A DNA stretch of 64,000 nt, from assembly GCF_041563035.1 (NCBI RefSeq), contig NZ_JBFFNS010000013.1:9353-73352 (forward strand), given 5' to 3'. Positions within the stretch are counted from its first letter, which is position 1. Every line of letters begins with the position of its first letter. Below are positions 9,120 through 38,837 of this stretch, in pieces. The DNA is from Sulfurimonas sp. Lineage in GTDB: Bacteria > Campylobacterota > Campylobacteria > Campylobacterales > Sulfurimonadaceae. The notes beneath the pieces are model-generated. The model worked only from the letters and a program-made list of their open reading frames with translations, was not told where the DNA came from and ran no database searches. The translations under genes were made by a program, and so were the position numbers.

Positions 9120-9161
9120 ACCTGTACAAAAACCTAGCTTTACGCTGATTAATGAGGCGAA

Positions 9162-10601: not shown

Positions 10602-10603
10602 TT

Positions 10604-10879: not shown

Positions 10880-10915
10880 GAAGAAGTGATTTAACTATTT
10901 GTTAAAATTAGTCTA

Positions 10916-12535: not shown

Positions 12536-12563
12536 CCTCTAATGACTCAAAAGGAATAAACTC

Positions 12564-12668: not shown

Positions 12669-12671
12669 GGA

Positions 12672-13451: not shown

Positions 13452-13551
13452 TTCTTATATTCCTTAATTTTACACTTCTTTTTACTTAGCATATTGCCAC
13501 AGCACTTTTGTGCTGTTTATTATTAATGATTGATTTATATCATAAGCTATC

Positions 13552-24705: not shown

Positions 24706-25179
24706 ATGTTATACATAATATGTGCTTTAAAATCAGAAGCTCAAGCTTTTGTCGATAAATACAAACTTCCAAAAAACAGGCAAAATGCACAAATCACTCT
24801 AATAGTAAGCGGGGTAGGCTCTGAGAATATGTTTAATGCAACAAAAGATGCTGTAACTAATATGAGTAATAATGATACAATCATCAATGTAGGCATCTGT
24901 GGTGGAGATAAAAAGTTTGCTATTGGGGAGCTTATAGATGCAAGAGATGAAAATCTTACATGCGTAGTATCTGAAATCTCAGAACATGGTCAGTATGAAC
25001 TTGTAGATATGGAATCTGAGGGGTTTTTAAAAGCTGTGCAGAATGTAGAGAATAAATATATTTTCAAAGTCGTATCAGATCATTTTGAACCTCATAAAGT
25101 AACCAAAGATAAAACGAAATCTCTTATATTTAATGTTATAGATGATATAAACAATAAAATAAATTTTAAGGCCAATTAA
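24706..25179 (+). CDS. Short nucleoside phosphorylase/MTA-SAH nucleosidase-like protein
   Basis: ALKSEA, INVGICGG, VDMESEGF and KVVSDH resemble PNP_UDP_1 motifs; only 157 aa. Confidence 0.65.
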   Translation: MLYIICALKSEAQAFVDKYKLPKNRQNAQITLIVSGVGSENMFNATKDAVTNMSNNDTIINVGICGGDKKFAIGELIDARDENLTCVVSEISEHGQYELVDMESEGFLKAVQNVENKYIFKVVSDHFEPHKVTKDKTKSLIFNVIDDINNKINFKAN

Positions 25180-26855
25180 TGAAATACATCATTTTACTAT
25201 TACTAGCTATTTTAACTCTAAATGCAAGCACATCTGAGGAAATGAAACTAAAAAAACAGATTGGCCGTATGCTTGTTATAGGATTTGAGAATCAAAGCGT
25301 TAATCAAAACACTGAAATTGTAAAACAGATGCAGAAATACGATCTTGGTGGAGTTATTTTATTTGATAAATTTTATCAAAAAAGAAGCATCACTAAAAAT
25401 ATAGATTCACCAAAACAACTTCAAGAGCTAACTTCAAAACTTCAAAAATTCTCACGAAAACCTCTTTTAATATCTGTTGATCAAGAGGGTGGAAATGTAG
25501 CACGACTAAAACATTACTATGGATTTGATAGATTTCCATCTGCAAAAGAGGTCTCATTTCTTTCAACAAGACAGGCAAAAGATATATATGACAAACAATC
25601 ACAGATGCTTGAAGAAAATAATATCAACTGTAACTTTGCTCCTGTTGTTGATTTGGATATAAATCCTAAAAACAAAGTTATCTCAGAACTGGAACGCTCA
25701 TTTGGAGATTCAGGTCAAAAAGTAACTAAATACGCAAAAATAATGATAGATGCACAGGCAAAGCATAATGTCATAAGTGTTTTAAAGCATTTCCCAGGTC
25801 ATGGTTCATCACTTGGAGATTCACACAAAGGTTTTGTAGATATCTCAAACACTTGGACTCAAAAAGAGTTAATACCCTATCAAAATCTTATAGATGCAAA
25901 CAAAGTAGATATGATAATGAGTGCTCATGTTTTTAACTCTACACTAGACCCTAAATATCCTGCGACACTTTCATATAGTATAAATACTAAACTCCTTCGA
26001 GAAAAGATGGGCTTTAAAGGCGTGCTTATAAGTGATGATTTGCAGATGAAAGCAATCACAGAGCATTACACTCTAAAAGAGACAGTTACAAGAGCTATAA
26101 ACTCAGGCGTAGATATTCTTCTCTTTGGAAACCAGTTAGCATCTAATAATGCAGATGAGTTGGTTAAACTAATCTACTCTCAGGTTAAGAGTGGATCTAT
26201 TTCAAAGAAAAGGATTGAAGAAGCAAACACAAGAATAGAAAACTTGCATACAAAAAACTCTATAGTTCAACGACCAATAGAGTTTGGTGAAGAACGCATA
26301 GAGATGACTAAAGCTTACATCAAACAGCACTACGCTCTAGAGACAAAAGACATAACAATAGACCCCAAGGTTATAGTTCTACACTGGACTGCTGTTATGG
26401 ACTTCGAGGATTGCTTTAAACGACTAAAAGGAAACACACTCTACAGTGACAGAGGTGATATAGCAGATGCTGGAGCACTAAACGTATCTTCTCACTTTTT
26501 GGTAGCTCGTGATGGGACTATCTATCAGCTAATGCCGGACAATTGGATGGCGAGACATGTCATAGGACTTAACTACTCAAGTATCGGTATAGAAAATGTT
26601 GGTGGAGAAGATAATGTTAAAGATGATTTAACTCCTGCGCAAGTAGAATCAAATATCAAACTTGTAAAATATTTAAAAGCAAAGTATCCAAACATAGAGT
26701 ACCTCATCGGTCATCATGAATATCAAGAGATGGAAAGGTCTGCTCTTTGGTTAGAAAAAGATGCAGAGTATAGAACAGAAAAAGCTGATCCTGGAAAGAA
26801 GTTTATGAATAAGGTCAGAAAGAATGTTAAAGAATTAGGACTAAAGAAACCATAG
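25179..26855 (+). CDS. Exported fusion: GH3 beta-N-acetylglucosaminidase (NagZ-type) + Amidase_2 N-acetylmuramoyl-L-alanine amidase
   Basis: Signal peptide. NagZ motifs SVDQEGG, KHFPGHGSSLGDSH and SDDLQM. Amidase motifs VLHWT, SSHFLV, ARHVIGLNYSSIGIE, GHHE and KADPG. Confidence 0.9.
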   Translation: MKYIILLLLAILTLNASTSEEMKLKKQIGRMLVIGFENQSVNQNTEIVKQMQKYDLGGVILFDKFYQKRSITKNIDSPKQLQELTSKLQKFSRKPLLISVDQEGGNVARLKHYYGFDRFPSAKEVSFLSTRQAKDIYDKQSQMLEENNINCNFAPVVDLDINPKNKVISELERSFGDSGQKVTKYAKIMIDAQAKHNVISVLKHFPGHGSSLGDSHKGFVDISNTWTQKELIPYQNLIDANKVDMIMSAHVFNSTLDPKYPATLSYSINTKLLREKMGFKGVLISDDLQMKAITEHYTLKETVTRAINSGVDILLFGNQLASNNADELVKLIYSQVKSGSISKKRIEEANTRIENLHTKNSIVQRPIEFGEERIEMTKAYIKQHYALETKDITIDPKVIVLHWTAVMDFEDCFKRLKGNTLYSDRGDIADAGALNVSSHFLVARDGTIYQLMPDNWMARHVIGLNYSSIGIENVGGEDNVKDDLTPAQVESNIKLVKYLKAKYPNIEYLIGHHEYQEMERSALWLEKDAEYRTEKADPGKKFMNKVRKNVKELGLKKP

Positions 26856-28334
26856 ATGCAAAGTGCTTTCTCATCTCTTGACTGGTCTGTTTTTGGAGCT
26901 TATTTTCTAATTCTCGCCATTACTTCATACATTTTAGCTCAGGCAAAAATAAAAACTTCAAGAGAGTACTTTGTAAGTGCCAACTCCATGCCTATGTTTG
27001 CAGTTGCCATCTCTGTTTTAGCCACGTCTCAATCAGCCGCAACCTTTTTAGGAGCACCTGAGTTTTCATACAAAAACGATTTTACCTTTATAGGTTTTTA
27101 TATCTCTGGTTTGGTCGCTGTTATCTTTGTGGCCTATGTTCTTATCCCTAAGTTTTACGCTATGAGAGCGGTTACCGTTTATGAACTTTTAGAGACTAGA
27201 TACGGCGAGTCTGCAAAGAAACAAGCGGGGATCATGTTTCTCATCGGTCGGGTGCTTGCAAGCGGGGCAAGACTCTACATAGGTGCTTTAGCAATCTCGA
27301 TGATTCTCTTTGGAGATATTATCTTCATAAATGTTCTACTCTCTATCATCATACTGATGCTTGGAGCCTTGGTCTATACATATTTTGGCGGTATAAAGTC
27401 TGTCATTTTAAGCGACATCATTCAAGCCATTACCTATGTCGGAGCAGGTATTGTAGTACTTATCTATCTATACTACTCTCTTGATAGCATAAACATTATG
27501 CAAGTGCTAAGCGAGAACGATAAACTCCGTCTTGTTGATACTTCATTAGATGGGAAGTTTAGTATCATCGGGCTATTAAGCGGTTGGCTGCTTCTAAATA
27601 TTGCCGCTTTTGGAATGGATCAGGATATGACTCAAAGAGTTCTTAGCTGTAAAAATAAACAAGAAGCTGCAAAGTCTCTTATCGTCTCCATCTTACTTAC
27701 CATCCCTGTAGTTTTACTCTTCCTTGCCATCGGTGCCCTACTCTTTGTCTTTTATCATCAAGCATCCGTAGTACAAAGTTTTGATGGAGAAAACATCACT
27801 ATATTTATGTACTACATCTTAAATGAGATGCCAGACGGCCTTCGCGGTTTAGTAACTGTCGGAGCGATTGCCGCAGCACTTTCAAGTACAAACTCGGTTC
27901 TTGGAGCTATGGCATCTGTAGCCATCGAAGACCTATATAAACCTTGGAAACTAAGACAAGGCAAAATAGATGAGATGCACTTTGTTAAAGCATCAAAAAG
28001 AGCAGTTGTATTTTTTGCAATTGTCTTATCTATAATGGCAGTTGTCAGTTACTTCTGGCAAAGATATAGTGACCTCTCACTAATCAGTTTTGCACTTGGT
28101 GTTATGGCTTTTGCATATACTGGTCTCTTAGGAGTTTTTTTCTCAGCTATATTTACAAATAGAGGAGACTCAAAACTAGTTCCTTTTGCGCTTGTCGGTG
28201 GCTTTATAACCGTACTTTCACTTCAGCCTTACACTTTTGGCATCAGCCTTGGTTTTTCATGGCAGATAGTCATTGGGACGATTGTTGCTTTTGGGATTAT
28301 GCAATTAAAATCTTCTAAGGCTAAAAATGAGTGA
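26856..28334 (+). CDS. Sodium:solute symporter (SSS) family transporter
   Basis: EYFVSANSMP, SVLATSQSAATFLG, TVYELLETRYG, YTYFGGIKSVILSD, DQDMTQRVL and AAALSS motifs. Confidence 0.9.
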   Translation: MQSAFSSLDWSVFGAYFLILAITSYILAQAKIKTSREYFVSANSMPMFAVAISVLATSQSAATFLGAPEFSYKNDFTFIGFYISGLVAVIFVAYVLIPKFYAMRAVTVYELLETRYGESAKKQAGIMFLIGRVLASGARLYIGALAISMILFGDIIFINVLLSIIILMLGALVYTYFGGIKSVILSDIIQAITYVGAGIVVLIYLYYSLDSINIMQVLSENDKLRLVDTSLDGKFSIIGLLSGWLLLNIAAFGMDQDMTQRVLSCKNKQEAAKSLIVSILLTIPVVLLFLAIGALLFVFYHQASVVQSFDGENITIFMYYILNEMPDGLRGLVTVGAIAAALSSTNSVLGAMASVAIEDLYKPWKLRQGKIDEMHFVKASKRAVVFFAIVLSIMAVVSYFWQRYSDLSLISFALGVMAFAYTGLLGVFFSAIFTNRGDSKLVPFALVGGFITVLSLQPYTFGISLGFSWQIVIGTIVAFGIMQLKSSKAKNE

Positions 28335-29409
28335 ACTATATATCGGTGTTATGTCAGGGACAAGTATGGACGGTGTCGATATAGCTCTTTGTGAGATAGA
28401 CAGCACTAAATGCTCTCTTGTAGACTCTGCACTATATCACTACGATGGTGAGCTTGAGTCTGAAATACTTAAAGTTATAAACGGCTCCACTACACTAGAG
28501 CAAATAGGCACTATTGATAACAAGCTTGGAAATATGTTTGCAGATATAATAAACACATTTTTAAAATATAAAAAAATAGACCCTTCAACCATAAAAGCTA
28601 TAGGTCTTCATGGTCAAACACTCTGGCACGCTCCAGATGCTGACAACCCATTTTCAATGCAACTTGGGTGTCCTAATGTCGTAAGTGCAAAAACTGGCAT
28701 CCAAGTAGTAGCGGACTTTAGAAGAATGGATATGGCAAATGGTGGGCAAGGTGCACCTTTTGCTCCCGCTTTTCATCAAGAAGTATTTAAGCATCTGGAT
28801 AAAAAAACAGCTGTTTTAAATATTGGTGGAATGGCAAATATCACCCTTTTGGGTGATACGTTAAAAGGCTGGGATACCGGCTGTGGAAATGTTCTGATGG
28901 ACTACTGGAGTATAAATGATTCAGATATTGGTTATGACCTCAATGCCGAGTTTGCTCTTAGAGGAGAAGTTAAAGAAGATCTTCTTGATAGTTTTTTAAA
29001 AGATGAGTACTTTGCCAAACTTCCTCCAAAGAGTACAGGACGTGAATATTTTAACGCTACTTGGCTTGCAAACCATCTTCCACTTTTTGACACTATAAAA
29101 GCAGAAGACATCCAACGTACTCTGCTTGAACTAACAGCTAAAAGTATCGCTAATGATGCCAACAATACAGATGCAGAGCTTCTTATAGTCTGTGGTGGTG
29201 GCGCACAAAATCCACTTCTAATGCAAAGACTAAGTGAGCTGTGCAAGGCAGATATAAAAGTCAGTGATGAGTTTGAAGTAAGTTCTAGCTACATGGAAGC
29301 AATGGCATTTGCATGGCTTGCATACAAAAGAGTTCATAGAGAAGTTGTAGAGCTCTCAAGCGTAACAGGTGCTACAAAAGACTCTATTTTAGGCGGAATT
29401 TATGGATAA
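28327..29409 (+). CDS. anmK: Anhydro-N-acetylmuramic acid kinase
   Basis: GVMSGTSMDGVD, HGQTL, GGQGAP, LNIGGMAN, DTGCGN, CGGGAQN and EAMAFAW motifs. Confidence 0.95.
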   Translation: MSELYIGVMSGTSMDGVDIALCEIDSTKCSLVDSALYHYDGELESEILKVINGSTTLEQIGTIDNKLGNMFADIINTFLKYKKIDPSTIKAIGLHGQTLWHAPDADNPFSMQLGCPNVVSAKTGIQVVADFRRMDMANGGQGAPFAPAFHQEVFKHLDKKTAVLNIGGMANITLLGDTLKGWDTGCGNVLMDYWSINDSDIGYDLNAEFALRGEVKEDLLDSFLKDEYFAKLPPKSTGREYFNATWLANHLPLFDTIKAEDIQRTLLELTAKSIANDANNTDAELLIVCGGGAQNPLLMQRLSELCKADIKVSDEFEVSSSYMEAMAFAWLAYKRVHREVVELSSVTGATKDSILGGIYG

Positions 29410-30340
29410 GACAAAAGCGTGGTTGGGTACTACTCCCTATAGAGACTATGAGATAAGCATAGCATCTGCAGATGCAAGTTTTAGAAAATACTATAGGCTG
29501 TCTGGGGCGAACAAAACACTCCTGCTTATGGACTCATCACTGGAAAAAGATTCTCTTGCTCCTTTTATAGATGTGACTTCAAGACTCTTGGATGTAGATG
29601 TTAATGCTCCTAGGATTTTAGAGAAAAACCTTAAAGATGGTTTTTTGATTATTGAAGATTTTGGGAATATTCACTATCTAAATATACTAAATGATACAAA
29701 CTACAAAGAGCTTTACTCAAAAGCAATAGATACAATCATAACTATGCAAGATGCAGATACAAAAGATTTACCACTTTACGACAAAGCTTTTTTACATTTT
29801 GAGATGGATTTGATGAAAGATTGGTACTTAGAGAAGAACCTAAAAGTAACTCTAAATAAATCTCAGAAAAAGACCATTGAAAAGTCGCTAGAGACAATCT
29901 CAAATGTAGTTCTTTCTCAGCCACAAAACGTCTTTGTTCACCGTGATTATCACTCAAGAAATATCATGTTGACAAAGGATGACAAAATAGGTGTTATAGA
30001 CTATCAAGATGCAATGAGAGGAGCGATTACTTATGATCTAGTCTCGCTTCTAAAAGATTGCTACATTGCTTATGAAAGAGAAGAGATAGAAAAACTTGTT
30101 TTAGAGTTTCGTGACAAAAAAGGCTTGGACGCAAGCAATAGCGAATTTTTAAAATGGTTTGACTTTATGGGAATGCAACGACATATAAAAGTCCTAGGAA
30201 TCTTCTCTAGGCTATTCCTGCGTGACTCTAAAGACGGTTACTTAAAAGATATTCCCCTAACACTAAAATACACTATAGATGCAGCTAGCAGATACGAAGA
30301 GACAAAAGATTTGGCAGAACTTTTAAAAGAACTTCAATGA
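29402..30340 (+). CDS. amgK: MurNAc/GlcNAc anomeric kinase (APH-fold)
   Basis: DASFRKYYR, EDFG, HRDYHSRN, IDYQDA, YDLVSLLKD and QRHIKVLGIF motifs; directly upstream of murU. Confidence 0.9.
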   Translation: MDKTKAWLGTTPYRDYEISIASADASFRKYYRLSGANKTLLLMDSSLEKDSLAPFIDVTSRLLDVDVNAPRILEKNLKDGFLIIEDFGNIHYLNILNDTNYKELYSKAIDTIITMQDADTKDLPLYDKAFLHFEMDLMKDWYLEKNLKVTLNKSQKKTIEKSLETISNVVLSQPQNVFVHRDYHSRNIMLTKDDKIGVIDYQDAMRGAITYDLVSLLKDCYIAYEREEIEKLVLEFRDKKGLDASNSEFLKWFDFMGMQRHIKVLGIFSRLFLRDSKDGYLKDIPLTLKYTIDAASRYEETKDLAELLKELQ

Positions 30341-30993
30341 AAGCGATGATACTCGCAGCTGGTCGTGGTGAGAGAATGCGACCGCTTACAGACACTCTTC
30401 CAAAACCACTTCTTGAAGTTAGAGGAAAACCTCTTATAGTCTGGCATCTACAAAAGCTTGCACAGAATGGCTTTAGAGATATAGTAATAAATATTGCTCA
30501 CCTTGGATATAAAATACCAGAAGCTCTTGGCGACGGCTCGAAATATGGAGTAAATATAACTTACTCTGATGAACAAGACGAAGGAGCTTTAGAGAGTGCA
30601 GGTGGAATCGTAAAAGCTTTAGCTCTTCTCGGTAATGAACCTTTTTTAGTTGTTAATGGCGACGTCTTTTGTGACTATGATTTTGATGCTGATTTTGACC
30701 TAGGAGAGAATTTAGCCCATCTTATTTTAGTTCCCAATCCTGAGCATAATTTGGACGGAGACTTTGGCTTAAATGGAACTTCCGTTTTAAATGAAGACCA
30801 AATAAAATATACTTTTTCAGGCATAGGCTACTATAATCCAAAACTATTTAGTGAGTTAGAATATGGCAAATCTGCTTTAGCCCCACTACTTAGAGAGAAA
30901 ATAAAAAATAAAAAAGTTACTGGTGAACTATATAAAAATATGTGGCATGATATCGGTACACCACAAAGATTGAAAGATATAAATAATGATTAA
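30337..30993 (+). CDS. murU: N-acetylmuramate alpha-1-phosphate uridylyltransferase
   Basis: MILAAGRGERMRPLTD..PKPLL, LESAGG, VNGDV and WHDIGT motifs; ATGA overlap with amgK. Confidence 0.9.
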   Translation: MKAMILAAGRGERMRPLTDTLPKPLLEVRGKPLIVWHLQKLAQNGFRDIVINIAHLGYKIPEALGDGSKYGVNITYSDEQDEGALESAGGIVKALALLGNEPFLVVNGDVFCDYDFDADFDLGENLAHLILVPNPEHNLDGDFGLNGTSVLNEDQIKYTFSGIGYYNPKLFSELEYGKSALAPLLREKIKNKKVTGELYKNMWHDIGTPQRLKDINND

Positions 30994-31957
30994 ATTACTT
31001 TTAGCTGCACTAATAGCAAGCACACTATCGGCAAAATATACAAACTGTGAATTTCAAAACAAGCATTACATAGATGTGTGTAAAAAGGCTGTCAAAAATG
31101 GTGTCTCATACAACTATGCGAACAAATTTTTACTTTCTTATTTTAAAACACAAAAGTATGATGAGATAAGTTGGAAGTATCTTCAACCTCGTCATATAAA
31201 GACTCATAAAAAGAGTGAAAAAAAAGCTAATAATGTATTGGTAAAACATATTCCAAAAATAGTGCTCCATCTACAAAAATACAAAGAGGTCTATGACTAC
31301 AGCGAGAAAAAGTATGGTGTAAATCGTGAGATAATAGCAGCTATACTAATGAAAGAGACAAAACTTGGAAAGATAAAACCAACTCATGATGCCTTTATAG
31401 TATTTAATACCATCGTTGTTAGAACAGATCCAAAAACTTCACGCCAAAAGTGGCTGCTAAAGATGGGTAAAACCAATATGGTCTCCATCATCACACACTG
31501 CTATAAAAAAGGGGTAGAACCTGAACAGTGTAATCTACCGAGTTCTTATGCCGGTGCTGTTGGCATTCCTCAGTTTATGCCAAACAGTTTTGTATATACA
31601 GATGGCTATAAATCTAAACATGCTGATCTGACTAAGATGGAAGATGCTATTGTCTCTGCCAGTAAATTTCTTCATAAAAAAGCGAATTTTTCTGAGCTTA
31701 TAAAGTGGGACAAGATGCCAAATATGCCAAAAGTAGAATCAGAGTGGTATGACTATGAGCACAAATATGAAAATGCTTCACTTGTTTACACAGAGAACAA
31801 GCATGGGAAAAAGTATAAGTGCTTTACATGTAAGAAAAAAGATTTTGATTATTTTAAAGAGTATGCTAAAAAGATTATGAGGTATAACAACTCATCTAAC
31901 TACGCTATCGGGGTTATGAGGCTGGCATACGACTCACACTATTTGCTCAGTAAATAG
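30986..31957 (+). CDS. Lytic murein transglycosylase, MltB/SLT_2-like
   Basis: Signal peptide, ILMKET catalytic Glu region, SSYAGAVGIPQFMP and RYNNSSNY motifs. Confidence 0.82.
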   Translation: MIKLLLAALIASTLSAKYTNCEFQNKHYIDVCKKAVKNGVSYNYANKFLLSYFKTQKYDEISWKYLQPRHIKTHKKSEKKANNVLVKHIPKIVLHLQKYKEVYDYSEKKYGVNREIIAAILMKETKLGKIKPTHDAFIVFNTIVVRTDPKTSRQKWLLKMGKTNMVSIITHCYKKGVEPEQCNLPSSYAGAVGIPQFMPNSFVYTDGYKSKHADLTKMEDAIVSASKFLHKKANFSELIKWDKMPNMPKVESEWYDYEHKYENASLVYTENKHGKKYKCFTCKKKDFDYFKEYAKKIMRYNNSSNYAIGVMRLAYDSHYLLSK

Positions 31958-32750
31958 TAGCCTTCAGCGTATGAGTCTTTCCCGGTTCTACTAATCTAAA
32001 ATCATCAAATGCATTGGCTGATTCGATGCAGACAAAATCCTTATATGCCTCATCTCTCATAGCACTCATTCTTTTACCTTTTTCTATCCAAGGATTCCAG
32101 ATTACTACTGAAGATGAACCTTCATTGTTTATGTGGATAGTTCTATCTTTATCTGTTAGTAAGATTTCAGAATTTACCTCTTGGTAAACTCTATCTACTT
32201 CCTCTTCAAACACAACATCTCCACTTTGAGTTAATTGCTCATTTGTAAGAGCATCTAAGAATGGTTTTTTATCAAGACCTTTTACTTTTGCATCTGAAAT
32301 ATGTGAAACAGGAAAATAAGTATGAAGAGCTTGTGTGATTTTAAAAGTTTTATCATCAATGTTTTTTGTAGTAAGTTCCATAGTAAGCTTGTCTGAGACA
32401 GTTACTTTTAACTCCAGTTCAAACTTGTATGGCCATAGAGTTAATGTCGCTTCTGAGTGCTTTAAAATGAGTATAACTTCCGTTGTGTTGGCATCTAACT
32501 CTTTAGTACTTGTATGTTCAAACAACGCTGTCCTTGCAAAGCCGTGCTGAGGCAAGTTTGGGTTATTCATTCCAAAAGATGGCCAGCAGACAGGAATTCC
32601 ACCACGGATGGCTTTGCCCACTTCAAAATCACTTATTTCACTAAGCCACAAAAGAGGTTTTTCACCTTTACGAGAGTAGTGAAAAATATGTGCTCCTTGA
32701 AGTGCGATCTTTGCAGATGCAGAGGCGTTGTTTATTTCAACAATTACCAT
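31947..32750 (-). CDS. D-hexose-6-phosphate mutarotase (aldose 1-epimerase family, YeaD-like)
   Basis: LQGAH, AIRGGIPVCWP, HGFAR, ALHTYF, VIWNPW and FVCIE motifs. Confidence 0.9.
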   Translation of the reverse strand: MVIVEINNASASAKIALQGAHIFHYSRKGEKPLLWLSEISDFEVGKAIRGGIPVCWPSFGMNNPNLPQHGFARTALFEHTSTKELDANTTEVILILKHSEATLTLWPYKFELELKVTVSDKLTMELTTKNIDDKTFKITQALHTYFPVSHISDAKVKGLDKKPFLDALTNEQLTQSGDVVFEEEVDRVYQEVNSEILLTDKDRTIHINNEGSSSVVIWNPWIEKGKRMSAMRDEAYKDFVCIESANAFDDFRLVEPGKTHTLKATIY

Positions 32751-34012
32751 GATGATTTCTTATGCCATTTAACTGCATACATAAGTATAAAGAGATAACA
32801 GACTATGCCAACTAGATATGATGACTGCATATCTCCACTTATTTGAGCGACTTTACCAAATGCAAGTGGAAGTATCGCTCCGCCGGCAATTGCCATGATT
32901 AGAAGTGCACTTCCCTGAGCTGTGTACTTACCAAGACCGTCTAATGCCAGAGGCCAGATAGTAGGCCAGACAAGAGCATTGGCAAATCCAAGAAGCGCAA
33001 CGAAAGTAACCGTATCTGGAAGTGTAGGTACTCCACTCCATCCCCATAAGATCTCTGATATTTGATGTGAAGTGCTCGAACTGTAAGCAACTCCTATTAA
33101 AAACAAAATCCCCACAATAGCAGAGCTCATAAGTGCTTTTTCTTGTGAAAGAAACTTAGGTATAAAGGCAACTCCGACTAGATACCCAAAAACCATAAAG
33201 ACCATCGTATAAGATGTAAGCGCAGTTGCATTTTCAACATTCAGTCCTTGAGCATAAAGACCGATAGTATCACCGGCTATAACTTCTATACCTACATAAA
33301 AAAATAGAGCAACAGCCCCAAGTACAACACGAGGAAAATGAAAAATTGTATCTTTATCGTAAGAATCCTCTTTTTCAAACTCCAACTCTGGAATAGATGA
33401 AAACTTTACTAAAGCTATCAGTCCAGTTAAAACAACTGCCATGATGATGTATGGAATAATAAGCCTAGACGCTAACTCTTTTGTATCTATAGACGCAAGA
33501 CTCTCAGATGATAGAGATGGAATATCTGCTAGGATTAAAGATGTAAAAAGAAGTGGAACTAAGACTCCTGCACTTTTATTTATCAATCCCATAATAGAGA
33601 TTCTCATTGCGGCACTCTCTATTGGTCCAATCAAAACCACATAAGGGTTAGATGCAGTTTGAAGTATTGTAAGCCCGGTTCCAAGAGTAAATAGTGCCAC
33701 TAAAAATAGTAAAAAGTCAGCACTAAGAGCGGCAGGGATAAAAACTAAACTACCCACAACCATAACTCCCAGACCAATGGCCATACCATTTTTGTATCCA
33801 GTACGTTCAAGTACAAATGACATCGGCAGAGCCATAACCGTATAAGCTATATAAAAAGCAAAAGTTACAAAGAGAGCTTGAAACTCATTCAAGTCACAGA
33901 TGACTTTTAAAAATGGGATAAGTGAACCATTTAACCAAGTTACAAAACCAAAAATAAAAAATAAAAGACCAATTATTATCATTGCAAACGAGTTAGTATG
34001 GTTTCTACGCAA
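32744..34012 (-). CDS. MFS sugar permease, glucose/galactose (GluP/NagP/FucP) family
   Basis: FFIFGFVTWLNGSLIP, LQTASNPY, FYVGIEV, WPTIWPLAL and MAIAGGA motifs. Confidence 0.9.
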   Translation of the reverse strand: MRRNHTNSFAMIIIGLLFFIFGFVTWLNGSLIPFLKVICDLNEFQALFVTFAFYIAYTVMALPMSFVLERTGYKNGMAIGLGVMVVGSLVFIPAALSADFLLFLVALFTLGTGLTILQTASNPYVVLIGPIESAAMRISIMGLINKSAGVLVPLLFTSLILADIPSLSSESLASIDTKELASRLIIPYIIMAVVLTGLIALVKFSSIPELEFEKEDSYDKDTIFHFPRVVLGAVALFFYVGIEVIAGDTIGLYAQGLNVENATALTSYTMVFMVFGYLVGVAFIPKFLSQEKALMSSAIVGILFLIGVAYSSSTSHQISEILWGWSGVPTLPDTVTFVALLGFANALVWPTIWPLALDGLGKYTAQGSALLIMAIAGGAILPLAFGKVAQISGDMQSSYLVGIVCYLFILMYAVKWHKKSSW

Positions 34013-34832
34013 ATTTTAATCCTTCGAGATATTTAGCAACTCCGTCTTCATCATTTGTATGAGGTAGAATAATATCAGCCTCATTTTTAACTTCCACCTG
34101 TGCATTCGCCATTGCAACAGAAGTCGCTGCTAATGCAAACATCCCTAAATCATTAAAATTGTCACCAAATACAGTAAGTTTAGAGAGATCAAACCCGCTG
34201 TACTCGCTAACACTTCTAATGCCATGAACTTTGTCAGCATCTTTATGAAGAATAGTTAAAAAATAGCAGCCGACATAAGCCTCAGGTGCTAGGATAAACT
34301 TTAAAGAATTTCCAAATATTTTCTCTAAAAGAGCTGCTAACTGACGAAGCAGTTTCTCTTCACCCATATAGACTATTTTAAAGTTATCATCCATTGCTCT
34401 GATTTCTTTGCACTCCTGCAAGTTATCATCTTTTGCGTAGCGAGTAAGTACTTCTTTTTGGTGCTCATTTAAAATGCTTGAATAAAGGAAAGCCTCATTT
34501 AGATTCTCATCTGCAAGTGCTAAAACAAATGGATATATACCAAACTTTCCACCTTCATTTATAATAATATCTGCTATCTCCTTACTTATAAACTTAGTGT
34601 CAATTATCTTTTTGTCCATAGTTGCTACTAATGCACCATCGAGAAGAATCATGGGAGCATTTATATGTACATTTTCTAAAAACTGTGCTGTTTTTTTGTA
34701 TGTTCTTGCAGTCGCAACGCTTAAAATAGAGTTTGTAGATTTTGAATTCCAAATAGTTTTAGTATAATCACTAATAGATAAATCAGTTTTCAAAAAAGTA
34801 TGGTCAAGGTCTGTAATATAAATATTTTTCAT
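34005..34832 (-). CDS. Cof-type HAD-IIB phosphatase
   Basis: TDLDHT (DxDxT), VATAR, DKVHG and FGDNFNDLGMF motifs. ATG at 34832 is preferred as the start. Confidence 0.88.
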   Translation of the reverse strand: MKNIYITDLDHTFLKTDLSISDYTKTIWNSKSTNSILSVATARTYKKTAQFLENVHINAPMILLDGALVATMDKKIIDTKFISKEIADIIINEGGKFGIYPFVLALADENLNEAFLYSSILNEHQKEVLTRYAKDDNLQECKEIRAMDDNFKIVYMGEEKLLRQLAALLEKIFGNSLKFILAPEAYVGCYFLTILHKDADKVHGIRSVSEYSGFDLSKLTVFGDNFNDLGMFALAATSVAMANAQVEVKNEADIILPHTNDEDGVAKYLEGLKFA

Positions 34833-34864
34833 GTTGAGATTATAACCAAAATAGGAAGAAGTAG

Positions 34865-35560
34865 ATGAAGAGAGCAATAATTACCGGTGCGAGTAGTGGG
34901 ATTGGCAAAGAGATATGTAAAAGACTTCTAGAACTACACTATGAGGTTATCGGAATCAGTAGAAGTATAACAGATGAGGAGTTTAACACTCCGCATTTCA
35001 CGCCACTTCAAGCTAATCTATCAGATGAAAAATCAACACTTCTAACCTGCAACAGTTTAAAAGATGAAAAGATTGATATGTTAATAAACTGTGCCGGTTT
35101 TGGAAGGTTTGAGCCGCATGAAGAACTAAGTCCAAAGACTATTACGGATATGACTTTTTTGAACCTGACAGCGCCGATGCTTCTAACAAATGCTCTACTT
35201 AGATCTCTGAAGAAAAATGATGGATATCTTATAAATATCAACTCCATCGAAGCTATCAAAACGAGTAAATTTGCAGGTGTATACAGTGCCACAAAAGCTG
35301 GTTTAAAAGCCTTTAGTGATTCTCTTTTTGAAGAGACCAGAAAGAGCGGACTTAGCGTAACAAACATAAATCCGGATATGACTCAGACATCTTTTTATGA
35401 TGAACTGCGTTTTGACACAAGCGATAAAGAAGAAGAAAGACTATTGGCATCTGATATAGCAGATGCTGTTGAACATATTCTCACTATGAGAAAAGGTGCA
35501 GTCATAAGCGACTACACAATAAGAAGTTTGAAATTTGGAATTTCTAAAAAAAGTAAATAG
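34865..35560 (+). CDS. Short-chain dehydrogenase/reductase
   Basis: ITGASSGIG, INCAG and YSATK motifs. Confidence 0.88.
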   Translation: MKRAIITGASSGIGKEICKRLLELHYEVIGISRSITDEEFNTPHFTPLQANLSDEKSTLLTCNSLKDEKIDMLINCAGFGRFEPHEELSPKTITDMTFLNLTAPMLLTNALLRSLKKNDGYLININSIEAIKTSKFAGVYSATKAGLKAFSDSLFEETRKSGLSVTNINPDMTQTSFYDELRFDTSDKEEERLLASDIADAVEHILTMRKGAVISDYTIRSLKFGISKKSK

Positions 35561-35566: not shown

Positions 35567-35821
35567 CTAGAGTTTAATATCTAACTTATTTATTTTTTGT
35601 CTTTCTGTAGATCGAAGAAAAGCTATATTTTTTTTAATTTTATTCATGGAGATTTTCGTCTCATCTTGAAGTGTATATAAAAGCTCGGTAGCTTCTTTGA
35701 GAAGGTAAATTGCCTGTTCAACCTCTTCTGCTTCACTTAATTCTGGAATATCATCCAAAAGCGCATCTAAAGCGTCAGTGTTTTTTTCAATAATGGCTAT
35801 TTTTAATTTAGTTAGCCACAT
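35567..35821 (-). CDS. Small helical flagellar protein downstream of fliS (FliT-like)
   Basis: 84 aa helical protein overlapping the fliS stop; occupies the position of fliT in fliD-fliS-fliT operons. Confidence 0.55.
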   Translation of the reverse strand: MWLTKLKIAIIEKNTDALDALLDDIPELSEAEEVEQAIYLLKEATELLYTLQDETKISMNKIKKNIAFLRSTERQKINKLDIKL

Positions 35822-36182
35822 TATTAGTTTCTCTCCAAGCGTCTAAAAGACCTCTGAAAACATTACTAACCTCATCAAGTTGTTCAATATTCTTTTCAAC
35901 TCCAGCAGATGCTAAAAGTTGAATCTGATAGTTGTAAAGACCTTCTAAATATGTAGCAACGTCACCTTGGGAAGTGTCCAAAACTAAAATAAGCTCGGTA
36001 ATAATAGCTATAGAACGATTTGTCCAATAAACTCTTTTTTCAATATCACCATCTTTGATAGCTTTTTTTGCTTGTGCATTAAAACGAAGAACACCCTCAT
36101 AAAGCATCTCTATAAGTTTTGCCGGAGACTCGATTCCTACATTGTTTTGTGCATAAATATTATGAGCATTACTACCATACAT
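35808..36182 (-). CDS. fliS: Flagellin export chaperone FliS
   Basis: ESPAKLIEMLYEG and LEGLYNY motifs; ATG at 36182 with an AAGGA RBS. Confidence 0.93.
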   Translation of the reverse strand: MYGSNAHNIYAQNNVGIESPAKLIEMLYEGVLRFNAQAKKAIKDGDIEKRVYWTNRSIAIITELILVLDTSQGDVATYLEGLYNYQIQLLASAGVEKNIEQLDEVSNVFRGLLDAWRETNNVAN

Positions 36183-36228
36183 GTTAGATCCTTTTTTACC
36201 ATCTTTACTAATTTCTTTCATGATAAAT

Positions 36229-36255
36229 ATATCGACATTTCAAATACTATCTTTA
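36229..36255 (-). promoter_or_regulatory. Sigma28 (FliA) promoter upstream of fliS
   Basis: TAAA-N15-GTCGATAT with exact 15-bp spacing. Confidence 0.78.
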
Positions 36256-36272
36256 GCTATTTTCCTACAAAT

Positions 36273-37649
36273 TTAGCTATTTTGTGCTGCTGTTTGAGCA
36301 TTTGCTATCTGAGCAAACATTGATGATGCTGAGTTTAGTTTACTTATTATCAAATCATAAGCAGCAAATCTTCTTGCCATGATTTCATATTTAGATTCCA
36401 GTCTCTCATTTGCCAATGTTTTTTTATCTTCAAGAGAACTAATAGAGTCTGTAATAGAGCTTTTTAATTGATCTAATGTAGCATCATATTTTGTATATTC
36501 CTCTATTTTGGTTGCATATTCATTAAATGCACCATCTAACTCTGTAGTTGTACCATCTCCATTATCAAAAGTTCCTCCGGCAAAAAAAGCTTCTACATTT
36601 GCAGAATTTTCATCCATTTTTGTAGTTAAAACATCTTTATCAAGTGTCATAACCCCTTCTTTATCTACATCAAAACCATAATCAATTAACGAACCAACAC
36701 CGCCGCCTATACTTTGTACCATATCCTCAATAGTAGACAACATATTTTTTATAGTACTTTCAGAAGAGAATGAACCTCTAGTTTCACTATCTACACTTGA
36801 CAATACCATCTTTTTAATGCCAGATACAGATTCATTGTATTTTTCTACAAAACTATCAAATTTTGCCATTATTGTTTCGCGGTCTTGAGATATATTCACT
36901 TGAGATGTACCAACTTCTTTTAAAGTGATACTTACTCCACTAAGTAAATCATCTACAGTATTACTTGTACGAGATATAGGTAACCCATTAAATGTAAAAG
37001 CTGCATTGACACCACTCTGAATGGCAGCTGCATCAAAATCAGTACTTAACTTTGAGTCTATTGTACCAGTTACATCTGTGATCGTAATATTTTGTGTTGT
37101 ACCCGTATCAGCGGAGCTTATAAATAGTCTAAAATCAGTAGCACCGATTTGGACAACTGTTGCATCTACTTTATCTCCGGCGACATCATTTATCAAGGCT
37201 TTTAACTCTTTAAGTGTAGTCGTATCTGTATAATCTATTGCAAAATCTTGACCATCAATATTTAAATTTATTTGTCCTGCGCCACCAGACACTAAAGCAT
37301 CCTCGCTAGCAAATGAACCAGACTGCTCTATTTGTTTTGTAGCTAAAGTTGTAACATTTAGACTGAAATCTTGTATATCACTACCTGCAGCCGCTGTTAC
37401 AGCTACTGATGTCCCAGTTATTTCAGCCCCTCTTTCGTCATACAAACTACTGCTATTTAGTTCATTAATACTATCTATTAGATTTGTCATATACGAATCT
37501 ATAACTTCCAAGTCATCCTGTTTTTTATTTTCAACAGTAAGCTTGCTACTAATAGGAGTAACATACTTAGCATTATCCGCAGCTCTAAGTTGATCAATAA
37601 CATCTTGAGTTAATATACTTGAACCAGCTCCTAGTGAACTAATACCCAT
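36273..37649 (-). CDS. fliD: Flagellar filament capping protein
   Basis: MGISSLGAGSSILTQDVIDQL N-terminus, SRTSNTVDDL, FVEKYNE, and C-terminal RFAAYD..ISKLNS. Confidence 0.93.
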   Translation of the reverse strand: MGISSLGAGSSILTQDVIDQLRAADNAKYVTPISSKLTVENKKQDDLEVIDSYMTNLIDSINELNSSSLYDERGAEITGTSVAVTAAAGSDIQDFSLNVTTLATKQIEQSGSFASEDALVSGGAGQINLNIDGQDFAIDYTDTTTLKELKALINDVAGDKVDATVVQIGATDFRLFISSADTGTTQNITITDVTGTIDSKLSTDFDAAAIQSGVNAAFTFNGLPISRTSNTVDDLLSGVSITLKEVGTSQVNISQDRETIMAKFDSFVEKYNESVSGIKKMVLSSVDSETRGSFSSESTIKNMLSTIEDMVQSIGGGVGSLIDYGFDVDKEGVMTLDKDVLTTKMDENSANVEAFFAGGTFDNGDGTTTELDGAFNEYATKIEEYTKYDATLDQLKSSITDSISSLEDKKTLANERLESKYEIMARRFAAYDLIISKLNSASSMFAQIANAQTAAQNS

Positions 37650-37702
37650 AACAAATCCTTTCCTTTAAATAATCTTTCATTATTATAATATCTATTGACT
37701 GT

Positions 37703-37729
37703 AAATCGACCATATAATAAATATCTTTA
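37703..37729 (-). promoter_or_regulatory. Sigma28 (FliA) promoter upstream of fliD
   Basis: TAAA-N15-GTCGATTT with exact 15-bp spacing. Confidence 0.8.
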
Positions 37730-37741
37730 ATCACAATATAT

Positions 37742-37758
37742 TTGGTATTATTATTGCT
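37742..37758 (+). promoter_or_regulatory. Candidate sigma54 (-24/-12) promoter of the glycosylation island
   Basis: TTGGTAT-TATTA-TTGCT: GG(37744-45)-N10-GC(37756-57), 39 bp before the neuB ATG. Confidence 0.55.
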
Positions 37759-37796
37759 CAATAATTGAATAGAAAAATCTGTTATAAAGTATAAAA

Positions 37797-38837
37797 ATGA
37801 ATAAACTGATAATACAAGGCAGAGAGGTTAGCAAAGAGACTAAACCACTCATCATCGTCGAAATCGGAATAAATCATAATGGAGATTTAAATGAAGCATT
37901 TAAGCTAGTTGATGCAGCCCATGCTTCAGGTGCTGAAATAATAAAGCATCAAACTCATGTAGTTGAAGATGAGATGAGCAAAGAAGCAAAAAAAGTCATC
38001 CCTGGAAATGCAGATATTTCTATATATGACATTATGGAGCAGTGCGCTTTAAATGAAGAAGATGAGATAAAACTAAAAGAGTATGTTGAATCAAAAGGTA
38101 TGATATTTATCAGCACTCCTTTTTCAAGAGCAGCAGCTGACAGATTAGAAAAAATGGGCGTAAAAGCCTATAAAATAGGTTCAGGAGAGTGTAACAACTA
38201 CCCGCTTATAGAGCATATTGCTTCTTTTGGCAAGCCTATGATTGTCAGCACTGGGATGAATGATATAGCATCCGTAAGAAAAACTGTTGAGATTTTAGAG
38301 AAATATAGAGTGCCTTATGCTCTTCTTCATACAACTAACCTTTACCCTACTCCATCTCACCTTGTAAGACTTGGCGCTATGCAAGAACTCATGATAGAGT
38401 TTCCAGAAGCGATAATAGGACTTTCAGATCATACTACTTCAAATCTTGCATGCTTTAGTGCCACAGCACTTGGTGCCTGCATCTTGGAAAGACACTTTAC
38501 AGACAACATGAGTAGAATCGGTCCAGATATTATAAATTCCATGGATCCAAAAGCTTTAAGTGAATTAATAGAGGGCAGTGCTGAAATAGTAAAGATGCGC
38601 GGTGGTAAAAAAGAAGCTGCTGCAGAAGAGCAAGTTACAATAGACTTTGCTTTTGCTACAGTTGTTACAATTAAGCCTGTAAAAAAAGGTGAACTCTTTA
38701 CAAAGGAAAACATCTGGGTAAAAAGACCTGGAACCGGAGAAATACAAGCCCAATATTATGATGATGTACTTGGAAAAGTATCATTAAAGGATCTGGAAAA
38801 TGACGAACATCTATCATGGAGCGATATTGATGAGTAA
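37797..38837 (+). CDS. neuB: Nonulosonic acid (N-acetylneuraminate-family) synthase
   Basis: [30 protein letters not shown] and ERHFT motifs; C-terminal SAF domain (VKRPGTG). Confidence 0.92.

What the first reader, a model, noticed from the sequence alone, without database searches (positions are those of the whole stretch)
26856..28334. SSS-family symporter as candidate (anhydro-)MurNAc importer
Seen: the gene starts 0 nt after the NagZ-amidase stop and overlaps anmK. Known: characterised uptake routes for recycling substrates include AmpG, the PTS MurP, ABC systems and Tannerella MurT; sialic acid importers (SiaT) are SSS members, so amino-sugar acid transport is plausible for the family. 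Inference: the substrate is anhMurNAc, the AnmK substrate.
Basis: inference. Interest (0 to 1): 0.62.

Follow-up and report, generated by a model that had tools for sequence, protein, structure and literature searches.

The report
Sodium symporter for recycled cell-wall sugar
A sodium-driven membrane transporter sits inside a cell-wall recycling operon of a Sulfurimonas bacterium that has no AmpG, the usual importer of cell-wall fragments. It is the best candidate for bringing the wall sugar anhydro-MurNAc back into the cell, a job for which no transporter of this family has yet been characterised.

Summary
A 492-aa SSS-family gene (26856-28334, +) starts directly after the stop codon of a NagZ-amidase gene and overlaps anmK by 8 nt.

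The anhMurNAc-import reading is well supported by comparative evidence, though untested at the bench:
- The NagZ-amidase has a signal peptide. It is the genome's only GH3 and only Amidase_2, so muropeptides must be dismantled in the periplasm.
- The genome has no AmpG, MurQ, MurK, NamZ or NagX/MurT-type gene. The cytoplasmic AnmK can therefore only be fed by imported free anhMurNAc.
- Relatives form one strongly supported clade across Campylobacterota, Gamma- and Alphaproteobacteria, Phycisphaerae and others. In 60 of 80 loci there is a MurNAc-pathway gene within 5 kb.
- AmpG is absent from all 24 non-proteobacterial carriers tested and present in 25 of 26 proteobacterial carriers.
- Among 61 relatives the symporter and AnmK co-occur almost perfectly (25 both, 34 neither).

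The predicted fold is closest to the sialic-acid symporter SiaT, and the sodium-site residues are kept. By published evidence, Tannerella MurT belongs to a different protein family. I found no paper describing an SSS transporter for muramic sugars. The finding is a new variant of a known kind and can be tested directly.

The parts
24706..25179 (+). 157-aa ORF of unknown function and first gene of the operon. Its last base overlaps the nagZ-amidase start.
   Evidence: One search gives the coordinates. It has no Pfam hit, only a weak futalosine-hydrolase-like NCBIfam hit (22 bits). A homolog is seen upstream in one other Sulfurimonas locus, L005.
25179..26855 (+). Secreted bifunctional NagZ (GH3) plus Amidase_2 enzyme. 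It is predicted to strip GlcNAc and the stem peptide from anhydromuropeptides in the periplasm.
   Evidence: PF00933 scores 231 bits and PF01510 76.5 bits. The N-terminus MKYIILLLLAILTLNA/STS is a signal peptide. It is the only GH3 and the only Amidase_2 in the genome.
26856..28334 (+). SSS-family Na+/solute symporter (P0001, 492 aa), the candidate anhMurNAc (and possibly MurNAc) importer.
   Evidence: PF00474 scores 98.2 bits. The AF2 model has pLDDT 91.7. The top Foldseek hits are SiaT 5NVA/5NV9 with TM 0.84-0.88. Na2 and Na3 ligand positions are conserved. It belongs to a clade with 100% SH-aLRT support whose members are linked to MurNAc-pathway genes.
28327..29409 (+). AnmK, the anhydro-MurNAc kinase. 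It is cytoplasmic and consumes the proposed cargo.
   Evidence: NF007139 scores 448 bits against a cut-off of 367, and PF03702 scores 421 bits.
29402..30340 (+). AmgK-like MurNAc/GlcNAc anomeric kinase.
   Evidence: NF045759 scores 258.5 bits, below its cut-off of 550. PF01636 (APH) scores 87 bits.
30337..30993 (+). MurU, the MurNAc-alpha-1-phosphate uridylyltransferase.
   Evidence: NF045761 scores 307.9 bits against a cut-off of 250.
30986..31957 (+). Secreted MltB-like lytic transglycosylase (SLT_2), the likely source of 1,6-anhydro ends.
   Evidence: PF13406 scores 113 bits. The N-terminus MIKLLLAALIASTLSA is a signal peptide.
31947..32750 (-). Aldose-1-epimerase-family protein, last gene of the convergent operon.
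   Evidence: PF01263 scores 163.5 bits.
32744..34012 (-). NagP-type MFS permease, the candidate importer of the GlcNAc released by periplasmic NagZ.
   Evidence: NF046060 scores 501.7 bits, below its cut-off of 625. Within the genus it is present in 22 of 26 SSS-positive genomes and 2 of 11 SSS-negative genomes.
34005..34877 (-). Cof-type HAD phosphatase, a candidate stand-in for the MurNAc-6-P phosphatase (MupP) step.
   Evidence: PF08282 scores 141.8 bits. A homolog lies within 5 kb of the SSS gene in 6 of 23 Campylobacterota loci. The function is inferred only.

Best explanation
The gene encodes a sodium-coupled inner-membrane symporter. It imports free 1,6-anhydro-N-acetylmuramic acid, and probably also MurNAc, from the periplasm.

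Proposed pathway, with shown and inferred steps marked:
1. A secreted MltB-like lytic transglycosylase cuts the wall into anhydromuropeptides (inferred from family and signal peptide).
2. The secreted NagZ-amidase removes GlcNAc and the stem peptide in the periplasm. The secretion signal and the single-copy status are shown; the activity is inferred.
3. GlcNAc enters through NagP, and anhMurNAc enters through the SSS symporter driven by the Na+ gradient (inferred).
4. AnmK makes MurNAc-6-P, a phosphatase (perhaps the nearby Cof-type HAD) makes MurNAc, and AmgK and MurU make UDP-MurNAc (inferred from family assignments).

The route is purely anabolic, which suits an autotroph, and it does without AmpG and without cytoplasmic NagZ or AmpD.
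For: Operon position. The gene sits between the secreted NagZ-amidase and anmK, with a 0-nt gap upstream and an 8-nt overlap downstream.

Genome content.
- The genome is 100% complete and has no AmpG (TIGR00901).
- It has no MurQ, BadF-type kinase, NamZ or NagX/MurT-type gene.
- It has one GH3 and one Amidase_2, both in the signal-peptide-bearing fusion.

Periplasmic location across the Campylobacterota clade. Signal peptides or lipoboxes occur on the hydrolase encoded upstream of the SSS gene. They also occur on the sampled stand-alone NagZ and amidase copies encoded elsewhere.

Context in 80 orthologous loci.
- Campylobacterota: 21 of 23 loci hold a peptidoglycan-sugar gene (AnmK 15, AmgK 13, MurU 14).
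- Gammaproteobacteria: 22 of 23, typically SSS, BadF-type kinase, MurQ, NamZ, with divergent nagZ and murR.
- Phycisphaerae: 6 of 11, with AnmK and/or MurQ.
- Vibrio sp. RE88 has SSS-kinase-AnmK-MurQ with overlapping junctions. A Phycisphaeraceae MAG has SSS-AnmK-MurQ.

AmpG in carrier genomes (Fisher p = 4e-13).
- 0 of 16 Campylobacterota, 0 of 6 Phycisphaerae and 0 of 2 other genomes score over the cut-off.
- 25 of 26 Gamma- and Alphaproteobacteria do.

Co-occurrence in 61 relatives. SSS and AnmK are both present in 25, SSS alone in 1, AnmK alone in 1, and neither in 34 (p = 7e-15, not corrected for phylogeny).

Phylogeny. All 76 orthologs form one clade with 100% SH-aLRT support, separate from other SSS subfamilies.

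Structure and residues.
- The best solved relative is SiaT, which carries an N-acetylated sugar acid (137 bits; TM 0.84-0.88).
- The Na2 and Na3 ligand positions and the carboxylate-binding Ser60 and Thr63 are conserved (PMC5931594).
Against: - No transport data exist.
- Ser60, Thr63, Arg132 and Arg139 are also conserved in SSS subfamilies whose context is unrelated to peptidoglycan, for example an arabinofuranosidase plus ROK locus. They therefore do not establish specificity.
- SiaT's carboxylate-pairing Arg135 is Ala here.
- The closest proteobacterial orthologs sit with a MurK-like kinase, MurQ and NamZ. That points to MurNAc rather than anhMurNAc as the ancestral cargo.
- 20 of 80 loci show no recycling gene nearby. 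These are mostly Alphaproteobacteria with housekeeping neighbours.
- The co-occurrence statistics are inflated by shared ancestry.
- NagP or another permease could in principle carry anhMurNAc.
Confidence: 0.62

Rival explanations
1. It imports only reducing MurNAc, like the MurK/MurQ-linked proteobacterial orthologs presumably do. AmgK phosphorylates the MurNAc directly, and anhMurNAc reaches AnmK by another route.
For: In 18-19 of 23 gammaproteobacterial loci the symporter sits in an operon with a BadF-type kinase, MurQ and often NamZ, which releases MurNAc. The Campylobacterota clade is nested within these sequences. AmgK lies in the window operon.
Against: - The window genome has no NamZ or other detected source of reducing MurNAc, but it does have a lytic transglycosylase in the operon.
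- AnmK would have no substrate supply, because there is no AmpG and no cytoplasmic NagZ or amidase.
- Within relatives the symporter travels with AnmK.
- Pocket-aligned positions differ between the two groups: F78/F81/Y82/W244 in Campylobacterota against Y/T(S)/N/F in Gammaproteobacteria.
Confidence: 0.13
2. It is an AmpG substitute that imports larger fragments, either GlcNAc-anhMurNAc disaccharide or anhMurNAc-peptides.
For: AmpG is absent from every non-proteobacterial carrier tested. In Sulfurovum only an amidase, not NagZ, is encoded next to the symporter. In some Sulfurimonas only NagZ is.
Against: - Each Campylobacterota genome checked for GH3 has a single match. Seven of the eight checked for Amidase_2 have a single match; the Arcobacteraceae genome G376 has none.
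- Every sampled copy carries a signal peptide or lipobox, so an imported disaccharide or peptide-bearing sugar could not be processed in the cytoplasm.
- The known SSS cargoes I am aware of are small solutes (review PMC7918813).
Confidence: 0.08
3. It imports another product of wall breakdown, such as GlcNAc or a stem-peptide amino acid, rather than a muramic sugar.
For: Periplasmic NagZ releases GlcNAc, and AmgK also accepts GlcNAc (family knowledge). The BadF-type kinase next to the proteobacterial orthologs scores best against a NagK (GlcNAc kinase) model (247 bits, below cut-off). SSS members carry proline and monocarboxylates.
Against: - A NagP-type GlcNAc permease is encoded beside the operon and co-occurs with it.
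- The genes shared by the contexts across phyla are muramic-specific: AnmK, MurQ, NamZ and MurR.
- This reading would leave AnmK without any supply route.
Confidence: 0.1
4. The symporter carries an unrelated solute, and its place in the operon reflects horizontal co-transfer rather than shared function.
For: 20 of 80 orthologs have no recycling neighbours. Neighbouring SSS subfamilies with similar scores serve other sugars.
Against: Association with different muramic-pathway genes recurs in several phyla and in different gene orders, with tight translational coupling. Co-occurrence with AnmK within one genus is near-perfect.
Confidence: 0.05

Closest known systems
SiaT, the Na+/sialic acid symporter of Proteus mirabilis (PDB 5NV9/5NVA; PMC5931594)
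   Same: It is the best solved relative by sequence (137 bits, E = 9e-39) and by fold (TM 0.84-0.88). Positions equivalent to Na2 (Ala56, Ala339, Ser342, Ser343), Na3 (Asp182, Ser346) and the carboxylate-binding Ser60 and Thr63 are conserved. Its cargo is also an N-acetylated sugar acid.
   Different: Identity is only about 25%. SiaT Arg135 is Ala here, and Gln82 aligns with Tyr82 or Phe81. The genomic context is peptidoglycan recycling, not sialic acid catabolism. On the tree SiaT is far outside the clade.
Tannerella forsythia MurT-MurK-MurQ MurNAc uptake system (Ruscitto 2016, cited in PMC5790795 and PMC7670621)
   Same: It is functionally analogous: a non-PTS inner-membrane uptake of a free muramic sugar made by periplasmic enzymes, coupled to a cytoplasmic kinase. 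The proteobacterial orthologs of the window protein sit in the same kind of operon: transporter, BadF-type kinase, MurQ and NamZ.
   Different: MurT appears to belong to another protein family. S. maltophilia NagF is 35% identical to MurT (PMC13055268). [quoted passage not shown] The window protein matches only PF00474, and the genome has no NagX homolog. PMC5790795 calls MurT both 'sodium symporter superfamily' and 'MFS'. I could not retrieve its sequence to compare directly.
AmpG, the MFS anhydromuropeptide permease of E. coli and Pseudomonas
   Same: It plays the same physiological role: the entry point of wall turnover products into the recycling pathway that feeds AnmK.
   Different: AmpG has a different fold and a different cargo (GlcNAc-anhMurNAc with or without peptide), and it needs cytoplasmic NagZ and AmpD. 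It is absent here and from all 24 non-proteobacterial carriers tested, but co-exists with the symporter in 25 of 26 proteobacterial carriers.
Bacillus subtilis extracellular NagZ/AmiE/NamZ with PTS transporter MurP (PMC8054146, PMC5061867)
   Same: It follows the same logic: wall fragments are trimmed outside the cytoplasmic membrane to a free muramic monosaccharide, which is then imported.
   Different: The importer there is a PTS that phosphorylates MurNAc during uptake. The cargo is reducing MurNAc, and its fate is catabolic through MurQ. Here the importer is a Na+ symporter, the kinases are separate (AnmK, AmgK), and the fate is anabolic through MurU.
Pseudomonas AnmK-MupP-AmgK-MurU anabolic recycling shortcut (PMC5371407, PMC5371409)
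   Same: The window operon encodes AnmK, AmgK and MurU, with MurU above its curated cut-off.
   Different: Pseudomonas uses AmpG and cytoplasmic NagZ and AmpD. No MupP ortholog was recognised here, only a Cof-type HAD nearby.
OngIT, the SSS-family transporter for the oxidised chitin product GlcNAc1A in a marine bacterium (PMC9537276)
   Same: It is another SSS member assigned to an N-acetylated amino-sugar acid, and was identified from a catabolic gene cluster.
   Different: The substrate and the gene cluster are different. I made no sequence comparison here.

Membership tests
Solute:sodium symporter family (TC 2.A.21; Pfam PF00474) | Match to the family profile above the curated threshold | tested here: met
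   PF00474 scores 98.2 bits against a cut-off of 22.8, covering residues 38-430. TIGR00813 scores 158.5 bits, below its stricter cut-off of 184.
Solute:sodium symporter family (TC 2.A.21; Pfam PF00474) | LeuT-type fold with the SSS helix arrangement | tested here: met
   The AF2 model has pLDDT 91.7 and pTM 0.91. The top 27 Foldseek hits against the PDB are all SSS/SLC5 proteins, led by SiaT at TM 0.84-0.88.
Solute:sodium symporter family (TC 2.A.21; Pfam PF00474) | Conserved Na2 site ligands (TM1 and TM8) | tested here: met
   Ala56, Ala340, Ser343 and Ser344 align with SiaT Ala56, Ala339, Ser342 and Ser343. Asp187 and Ser347 align with the Na3 ligands Asp182 and Ser346. All are invariant in the Campylobacterota clade except the Ala340 position (21 of 22) (PMC5931594).
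Solute:sodium symporter family (TC 2.A.21; Pfam PF00474) | Na+-dependent solute uptake | not testable with these tools
   This needs uptake or electrophysiology assays.
SiaT-type sialic acid symporters | Arg135 salt bridge and Gln82 contact to Neu5Ac | tested here: not met
   Arg135 aligns with Ala135. Gln82 aligns with Tyr82 or Phe81, depending on the alignment.
SiaT-type sialic acid symporters | Genomic association with sialic acid catabolism | tested here: not met
   The neighbours are NagZ-amidase, AnmK, AmgK, MurU and MltB. The neuB-type gene at 37797 lies beyond the flagellar genes fliS and fliD and is a biosynthetic synthase.
Tannerella MurT-type MurNAc permease | Homology to Tf_MurT (NagX/HGSNAT-like membrane protein, according to PMC13055268 plus PMC11887185) | tested here: not met
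   P0001 matches only PF00474. A NagX query finds nothing in the window genome. The Tf_MurT sequence itself could not be fetched, so the test is indirect. PMC5790795 gives conflicting family labels.
Tannerella MurT-type MurNAc permease | Operon with MurNAc 6-kinase MurK and etherase MurQ | tested here: not met
   There is no BadF-type kinase and no MurQ in the window genome. The feature is met by the gammaproteobacterial orthologs.
AmpG muropeptide permease (MFS) | Match to TIGR00901 / MFS fold | tested here: not met
   No TIGR00901 match exists anywhere in the genome, while the controls E. coli and Caulobacter score over the cut-off.
MurNAc-pathway-linked SSS clade (defined here) | Placement inside the clade with 100% SH-aLRT support that holds the AnmK-, MurQ- and NamZ-linked symporters | tested here: met
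   The window protein lies in the 22-row Campylobacterota subclade (100% support) of the 76-row clade (100% support). That subclade is sister to the Vibrio sequences (support 90).

The most novel reading that the evidence does not exclude
This SSS clade is the missing inner-membrane importer of a 'periplasm-first' peptidoglycan recycling route used by Gram-negative lineages without AmpG (Campylobacterota, Phycisphaerae and others). In this route muropeptides are fully dismantled in the periplasm and free anhydro-MurNAc is taken up by Na+ symport. It would be the first transporter assigned to anhMurNAc and the first SSS/SLC5 member for a muramic sugar. In the Campylobacterota a shift of pocket residues to aromatics (F78, F81, Y82, W244) would adapt an ancestral MurNAc carrier to the anhydro sugar.
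Probability: 0.5. Interest if true: 0.72.

Novelty: new variant of a known kind. Interest (0 to 1): 0.6.

Why it matters
Peptidoglycan recycling has been worked out mainly in organisms that import disaccharide-peptides through AmpG or MurNAc through a PTS. How lineages without AmpG feed AnmK, AmgK and MurU is not explained by these routes. In the held literature I found no transporter assigned to free anhMurNAc.

A sodium-coupled importer would do three things:
- complete a periplasm-first recycling route in abundant marine chemolithoautotrophs such as Sulfurimonas and Sulfurovum;
- add a new substrate class to the SSS/SLC5 family;
- give a simple handle for tracing wall turnover, and for studying the AmgK/MurU bypass that confers intrinsic fosfomycin tolerance in other bacteria.

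The prediction can be tested directly with standard uptake assays.

Tried and rejected
1. Direct comparison with Tannerella MurT. The original paper is not held. I then tried several routes to a Tannerella locus and none reached one:
- cluster look-ups;
- two more homolog searches;
- sampling 301 genomes of GTDB phylum Bacteroidota for the SSS and for MurQ;
- fetching regions from those genomes.
The family of MurT had to be inferred from two S. maltophilia papers.

2. A subfamily that scores about 180 bits against the query (P0251) sits with an arabinofuranosidase and a ROK kinase. Another (P0404) has no informative context. Similarity score alone therefore does not define the muramic-linked set; the tree clade does.

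3. Using Arg132, Arg139, Ser60 and Thr63 as a signature for an acidic-sugar cargo. I rejected this because the same residues are invariant in subfamilies not linked to peptidoglycan.

4. Neighbour cluster 'unk358' turned out to be the antisense ORF of murQ, an artefact.

5. Promoter and terminator scans gave fewer sites than shuffled sequence and say nothing about the transcription unit.

7. The first attempt at the genome-contig scan with a 35-sequence alignment failed for lack of conserved stretches. It was redone with 12 sequences.

8. The model's coordinates are not exposed, so I could not measure pocket geometry or dock a ligand.
Full report
OBSERVATION. The ORF 26856-28334 (+) encodes 492 aa. 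The upstream gene ends with TAG at 26853-26855 and the ATG follows immediately. The anmK ATG at 28327 precedes the symporter's TGA, which ends at 28334, giving an 8-nt overlap. The protein matches Pfam SSF PF00474 at 98.2 bits against a cut-off of 22.8. The organism is a Sulfurimonas: the best homolog is 94% identical and comes from S. gotlandica GD1.

LOCUS ANATOMY. Seven + strand genes from 24706 to 31957 abut or overlap by 1-8 nt. In order they are:
- a 157-aa protein of unknown function;
- a GH3 NagZ plus Amidase_2 fusion;
- the symporter;
- AnmK (above the NCBIfam cut-off);
- an AmgK-like kinase;
- MurU (above its cut-off);
- an SLT_2/MltB-like lytic transglycosylase.

Converging on this operon from the other strand are an aldose-epimerase-family gene, a NagP-type MFS permease and a Cof-type HAD phosphatase. 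The NagZ-amidase begins MKYIILLLLAILTLNA/STS and the transglycosylase begins MIKLLLAALIASTLSA. Both are typical Sec signal peptides.

WHAT THE GENOME LACKS. The assembly is 100% complete. It has no AmpG: TIGR00901 finds nothing, while E. coli and Caulobacter score over the cut-off as controls. Searches with proteins taken from related loci find no MurQ, BadF-type MurK/NagK kinase, NamZ or NagX/MurT-type protein. There is a single GH3, a single Amidase_2 (the secreted fusion) and a single AnmK.

It follows that a cytoplasmic AnmK can be supplied only if free anhMurNAc crosses the inner membrane. A disaccharide or a peptide-bearing sugar could not be processed inside the cell. The symporter is encoded exactly between the enzyme predicted to make free anhMurNAc and the enzyme that consumes it.

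THE SAME LOGIC IN RELATED CAMPYLOBACTEROTA. Sulfurimonas, Sulfurovum and Arcobacteraceae loci show three layouts upstream of the symporter: the NagZ-amidase fusion, NagZ alone, or a stand-alone amidase.

Nearly all of these upstream proteins carry signal peptides or lipoprotein boxes, for example MTRTLLLCIALLSFTAC. Two loci (L020, L021) show no clear signal.

All nine genomes with an amidase-only or uninformative layout that I tested have one GH3 elsewhere. The four whose N-termini I read carry signal peptides. The three NagZ-only Sulfurimonas genomes tested each have one stand-alone Amidase_2 elsewhere; the NagZ-only Arcobacteraceae genome has none. The one stand-alone amidase N-terminus I read carries a signal peptide.

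Across 61 relatives, SSS and AnmK are both present in 25 genomes, SSS alone in 1, AnmK alone in 1 (both of these are incomplete MAGs), and neither in 34. The Fisher p is 7e-15, or 3e-7 within the genus, without correction for phylogeny. NagP is present in 22 of 26 SSS-positive congeners and 2 of 11 SSS-negative ones. That fits one permease for each of the two NagZ products.

WIDER FAMILY. A scan of one genome per species returned 592 relatives, of which I kept the best 80 loci. I clustered their neighbours and annotated the clusters. The recurrent partners are a BadF-type kinase (the family of Tannerella MurK), MurQ, NamZ exo-muramidase, AnmK, NagZ and MurR.

Within 5 kb, at least one such gene is present in 60 of 80 loci:

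| Group | Loci with a partner gene |
|---|---|
| Campylobacterota | 21 of 23 |
| Gammaproteobacteria | 22 of 23 |
| Alphaproteobacteria | 7 of 17 |
| Phycisphaerae | 6 of 11 |
| Other and unclassified | 4 of 6 |

The typical gammaproteobacterial layout is SSS, kinase, MurQ, NamZ, with divergent nagZ and murR. The loci without partners are mostly Alphaproteobacteria in which the gene sits among tRNA synthetase and ribosomal genes. That context is uninformative rather than contradictory. Vibrio sp. RE88 has murR and nagZ divergent from SSS-kinase-AnmK-MurQ with overlapping junctions. A Phycisphaeraceae MAG has SSS-AnmK-MurQ.

A maximum-likelihood tree places all 76 orthologs in one clade with 100% SH-aLRT support, on a long branch away from other SSS subfamilies and from SiaT. 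The Campylobacterota form one subclade (100% support) that is sister to Vibrio (support 90) and nested in Gammaproteobacteria. This suggests that a MurNAc-type carrier was acquired horizontally and placed in a new operon.

AmpG (TIGR00901 over its cut-off) is present in 25 of 26 gamma- and alphaproteobacterial carriers. It is present in 0 of 16 Campylobacterota, 0 of 6 Phycisphaerae and 0 of 2 other carriers (p = 4e-13). So where AmpG exists, the symporter belongs to a MurNAc scavenging and catabolic module. In the Campylobacterota and several Phycisphaerae, which lack AmpG, it is joined to AnmK.

STRUCTURE AND RESIDUES. The AF2 model is confident (pLDDT 91.7, pTM 0.91). Its nearest solved structures are the sialic acid symporter SiaT, 5NVA and 5NV9 (TM 0.84-0.88). 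SiaT is also the best PDB sequence hit (137 bits).

I mapped the published SiaT contacts (PMC5931594) onto the family alignment:
- Na2 (Ala56, Ala340, Ser343, Ser344) and Na3 (Asp187, Ser347) positions are conserved, which supports Na+ coupling.
- The carboxylate-binding Ser60 and Thr63 are invariant.
- SiaT Arg135 is Ala here.
- Arg132 and Arg139 are invariant in the clade, but they are equally invariant in SSS subfamilies with unrelated context. I therefore draw no specificity conclusion from them.

At positions aligned with the SiaT pocket residues, the Campylobacterota clade has F78, F81, Y82 and W244, while the MurK/MurQ-linked Gammaproteobacteria have Y, T/S, N and F. This is compatible with a shift towards the less hydroxylated anhydro sugar, but that reading is speculative. 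The AnmK-linked Phycisphaerae do not share the pattern.

COMPARISON WITH WHAT IS KNOWN. Full-text searches found no paper linking an SSS transporter to anhMurNAc, MurNAc or peptidoglycan recycling. The 2021 review of prokaryotic SSS proteins does not mention muramic acid or peptidoglycan.

The characterised non-PTS MurNAc permease, Tannerella MurT, seems to belong to another family. S. maltophilia NagF is 35% identical to MurT (PMC13055268). [quoted passage not shown] One paper calls MurT 'sodium symporter superfamily' and, elsewhere in the same text, 'MFS' (PMC5790795). I could not fetch the sequence to settle this conflict.

NagX-type genes do occur beside the symporter in some proteobacterial loci. 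The two transporter types therefore co-exist there and need not be redundant.

Other SSS members are already assigned to N-acetylated sugar acids: SiaT for sialic acid and OngIT for GlcNAc1A (PMC9537276). A muramic cargo is therefore chemically plausible.

VERDICT. The most likely function is Na+-coupled import of free anhMurNAc, probably with MurNAc, in a periplasm-first, AmpG-independent, anabolic recycling route (confidence about 0.6). The rivals are MurNAc only, larger fragments, GlcNAc or another product, and an unrelated cargo. Each is less consistent with the secreted single-copy hydrolases, the absence of AmpG and the recurrent muramic-specific partners.

Nothing here is experimental. 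The co-occurrence statistics are not phylogenetically corrected, and 20 of the 80 loci are uninformative. Earlier AI notes of this scan report similar SSS-anmK-murQ clusters in other genomes. I treated them as leads only.

Noticed in passing
L114-L123 (Chlorobiaceae genomes; e.g. L115:1631-6357): All 10 green-sulfur-bacterium loci examined carry an amgK-murU-namZ-SSS operon. This SSS belongs to a different subfamily, about 30% identical to the window protein and outside its clade. A second autotrophic lineage therefore seems to pair an SSS carrier with anabolic MurNAc salvage.
   Followed up: partly
L154-L156 (other members of GTDB phylum Bacteroidota): An SSS gene related to the Chlorobiaceae one lies convergent with namZ and is preceded by a STAS-domain gene.
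   Followed up: partly
Literature (PMC5790795 against PMC13055268 and PMC11887185): The protein family of Tannerella MurT is described inconsistently. One paper calls it both 'sodium symporter superfamily' and 'MFS'. [quoted passage not shown]
   Followed up: partly
window 34005-34877 (-) and L009, L011, L012, L019, L020, L022: A Cof-type HAD phosphatase recurs within 5 kb of the symporter in 6 of 23 Campylobacterota loci. It could fill the MupP (MurNAc-6-P phosphatase) step, which is otherwise missing.
   Followed up: partly
window 25179-26855 compared with L001-L022: The NagZ-amidase fusion is only one of three layouts. Some Sulfurimonas and an Arcobacteraceae MAG have NagZ alone upstream of the symporter. 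Sulfurovum has a lipoprotein amidase alone, with the partner enzyme encoded elsewhere.
   Followed up: yes
window 24706-25179 (+): A 157-aa ORF whose last base overlaps the nagZ-amidase start. It has no Pfam family and only a weak (22-bit) futalosine-hydrolase/nucleosidase-like hit. Its role is unknown.
   Followed up: no
tree: The Campylobacterota symporters form one clade nested within gammaproteobacterial sequences and sister to Vibrio. This points to horizontal acquisition followed by a change of operon partners, from murK-murQ-namZ to anmK-amgK-murU.
   Followed up: partly
window 35808-38837: fliS, fliD and a NeuB-type nonulosonate synthase follow the recycling region. The symporter's nearest solved relative is a sialic acid carrier, but these genes are biosynthetic and are separated from it by the convergent operon. 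I see no link.
   Followed up: no
L023 (Vibrio sp. RE88) 7925-14506: One operon encodes both a BadF-type kinase and AnmK after the symporter, followed by MurQ. This suggests a carrier that serves both MurNAc and anhMurNAc, in an organism that also has AmpG.
   Followed up: partly
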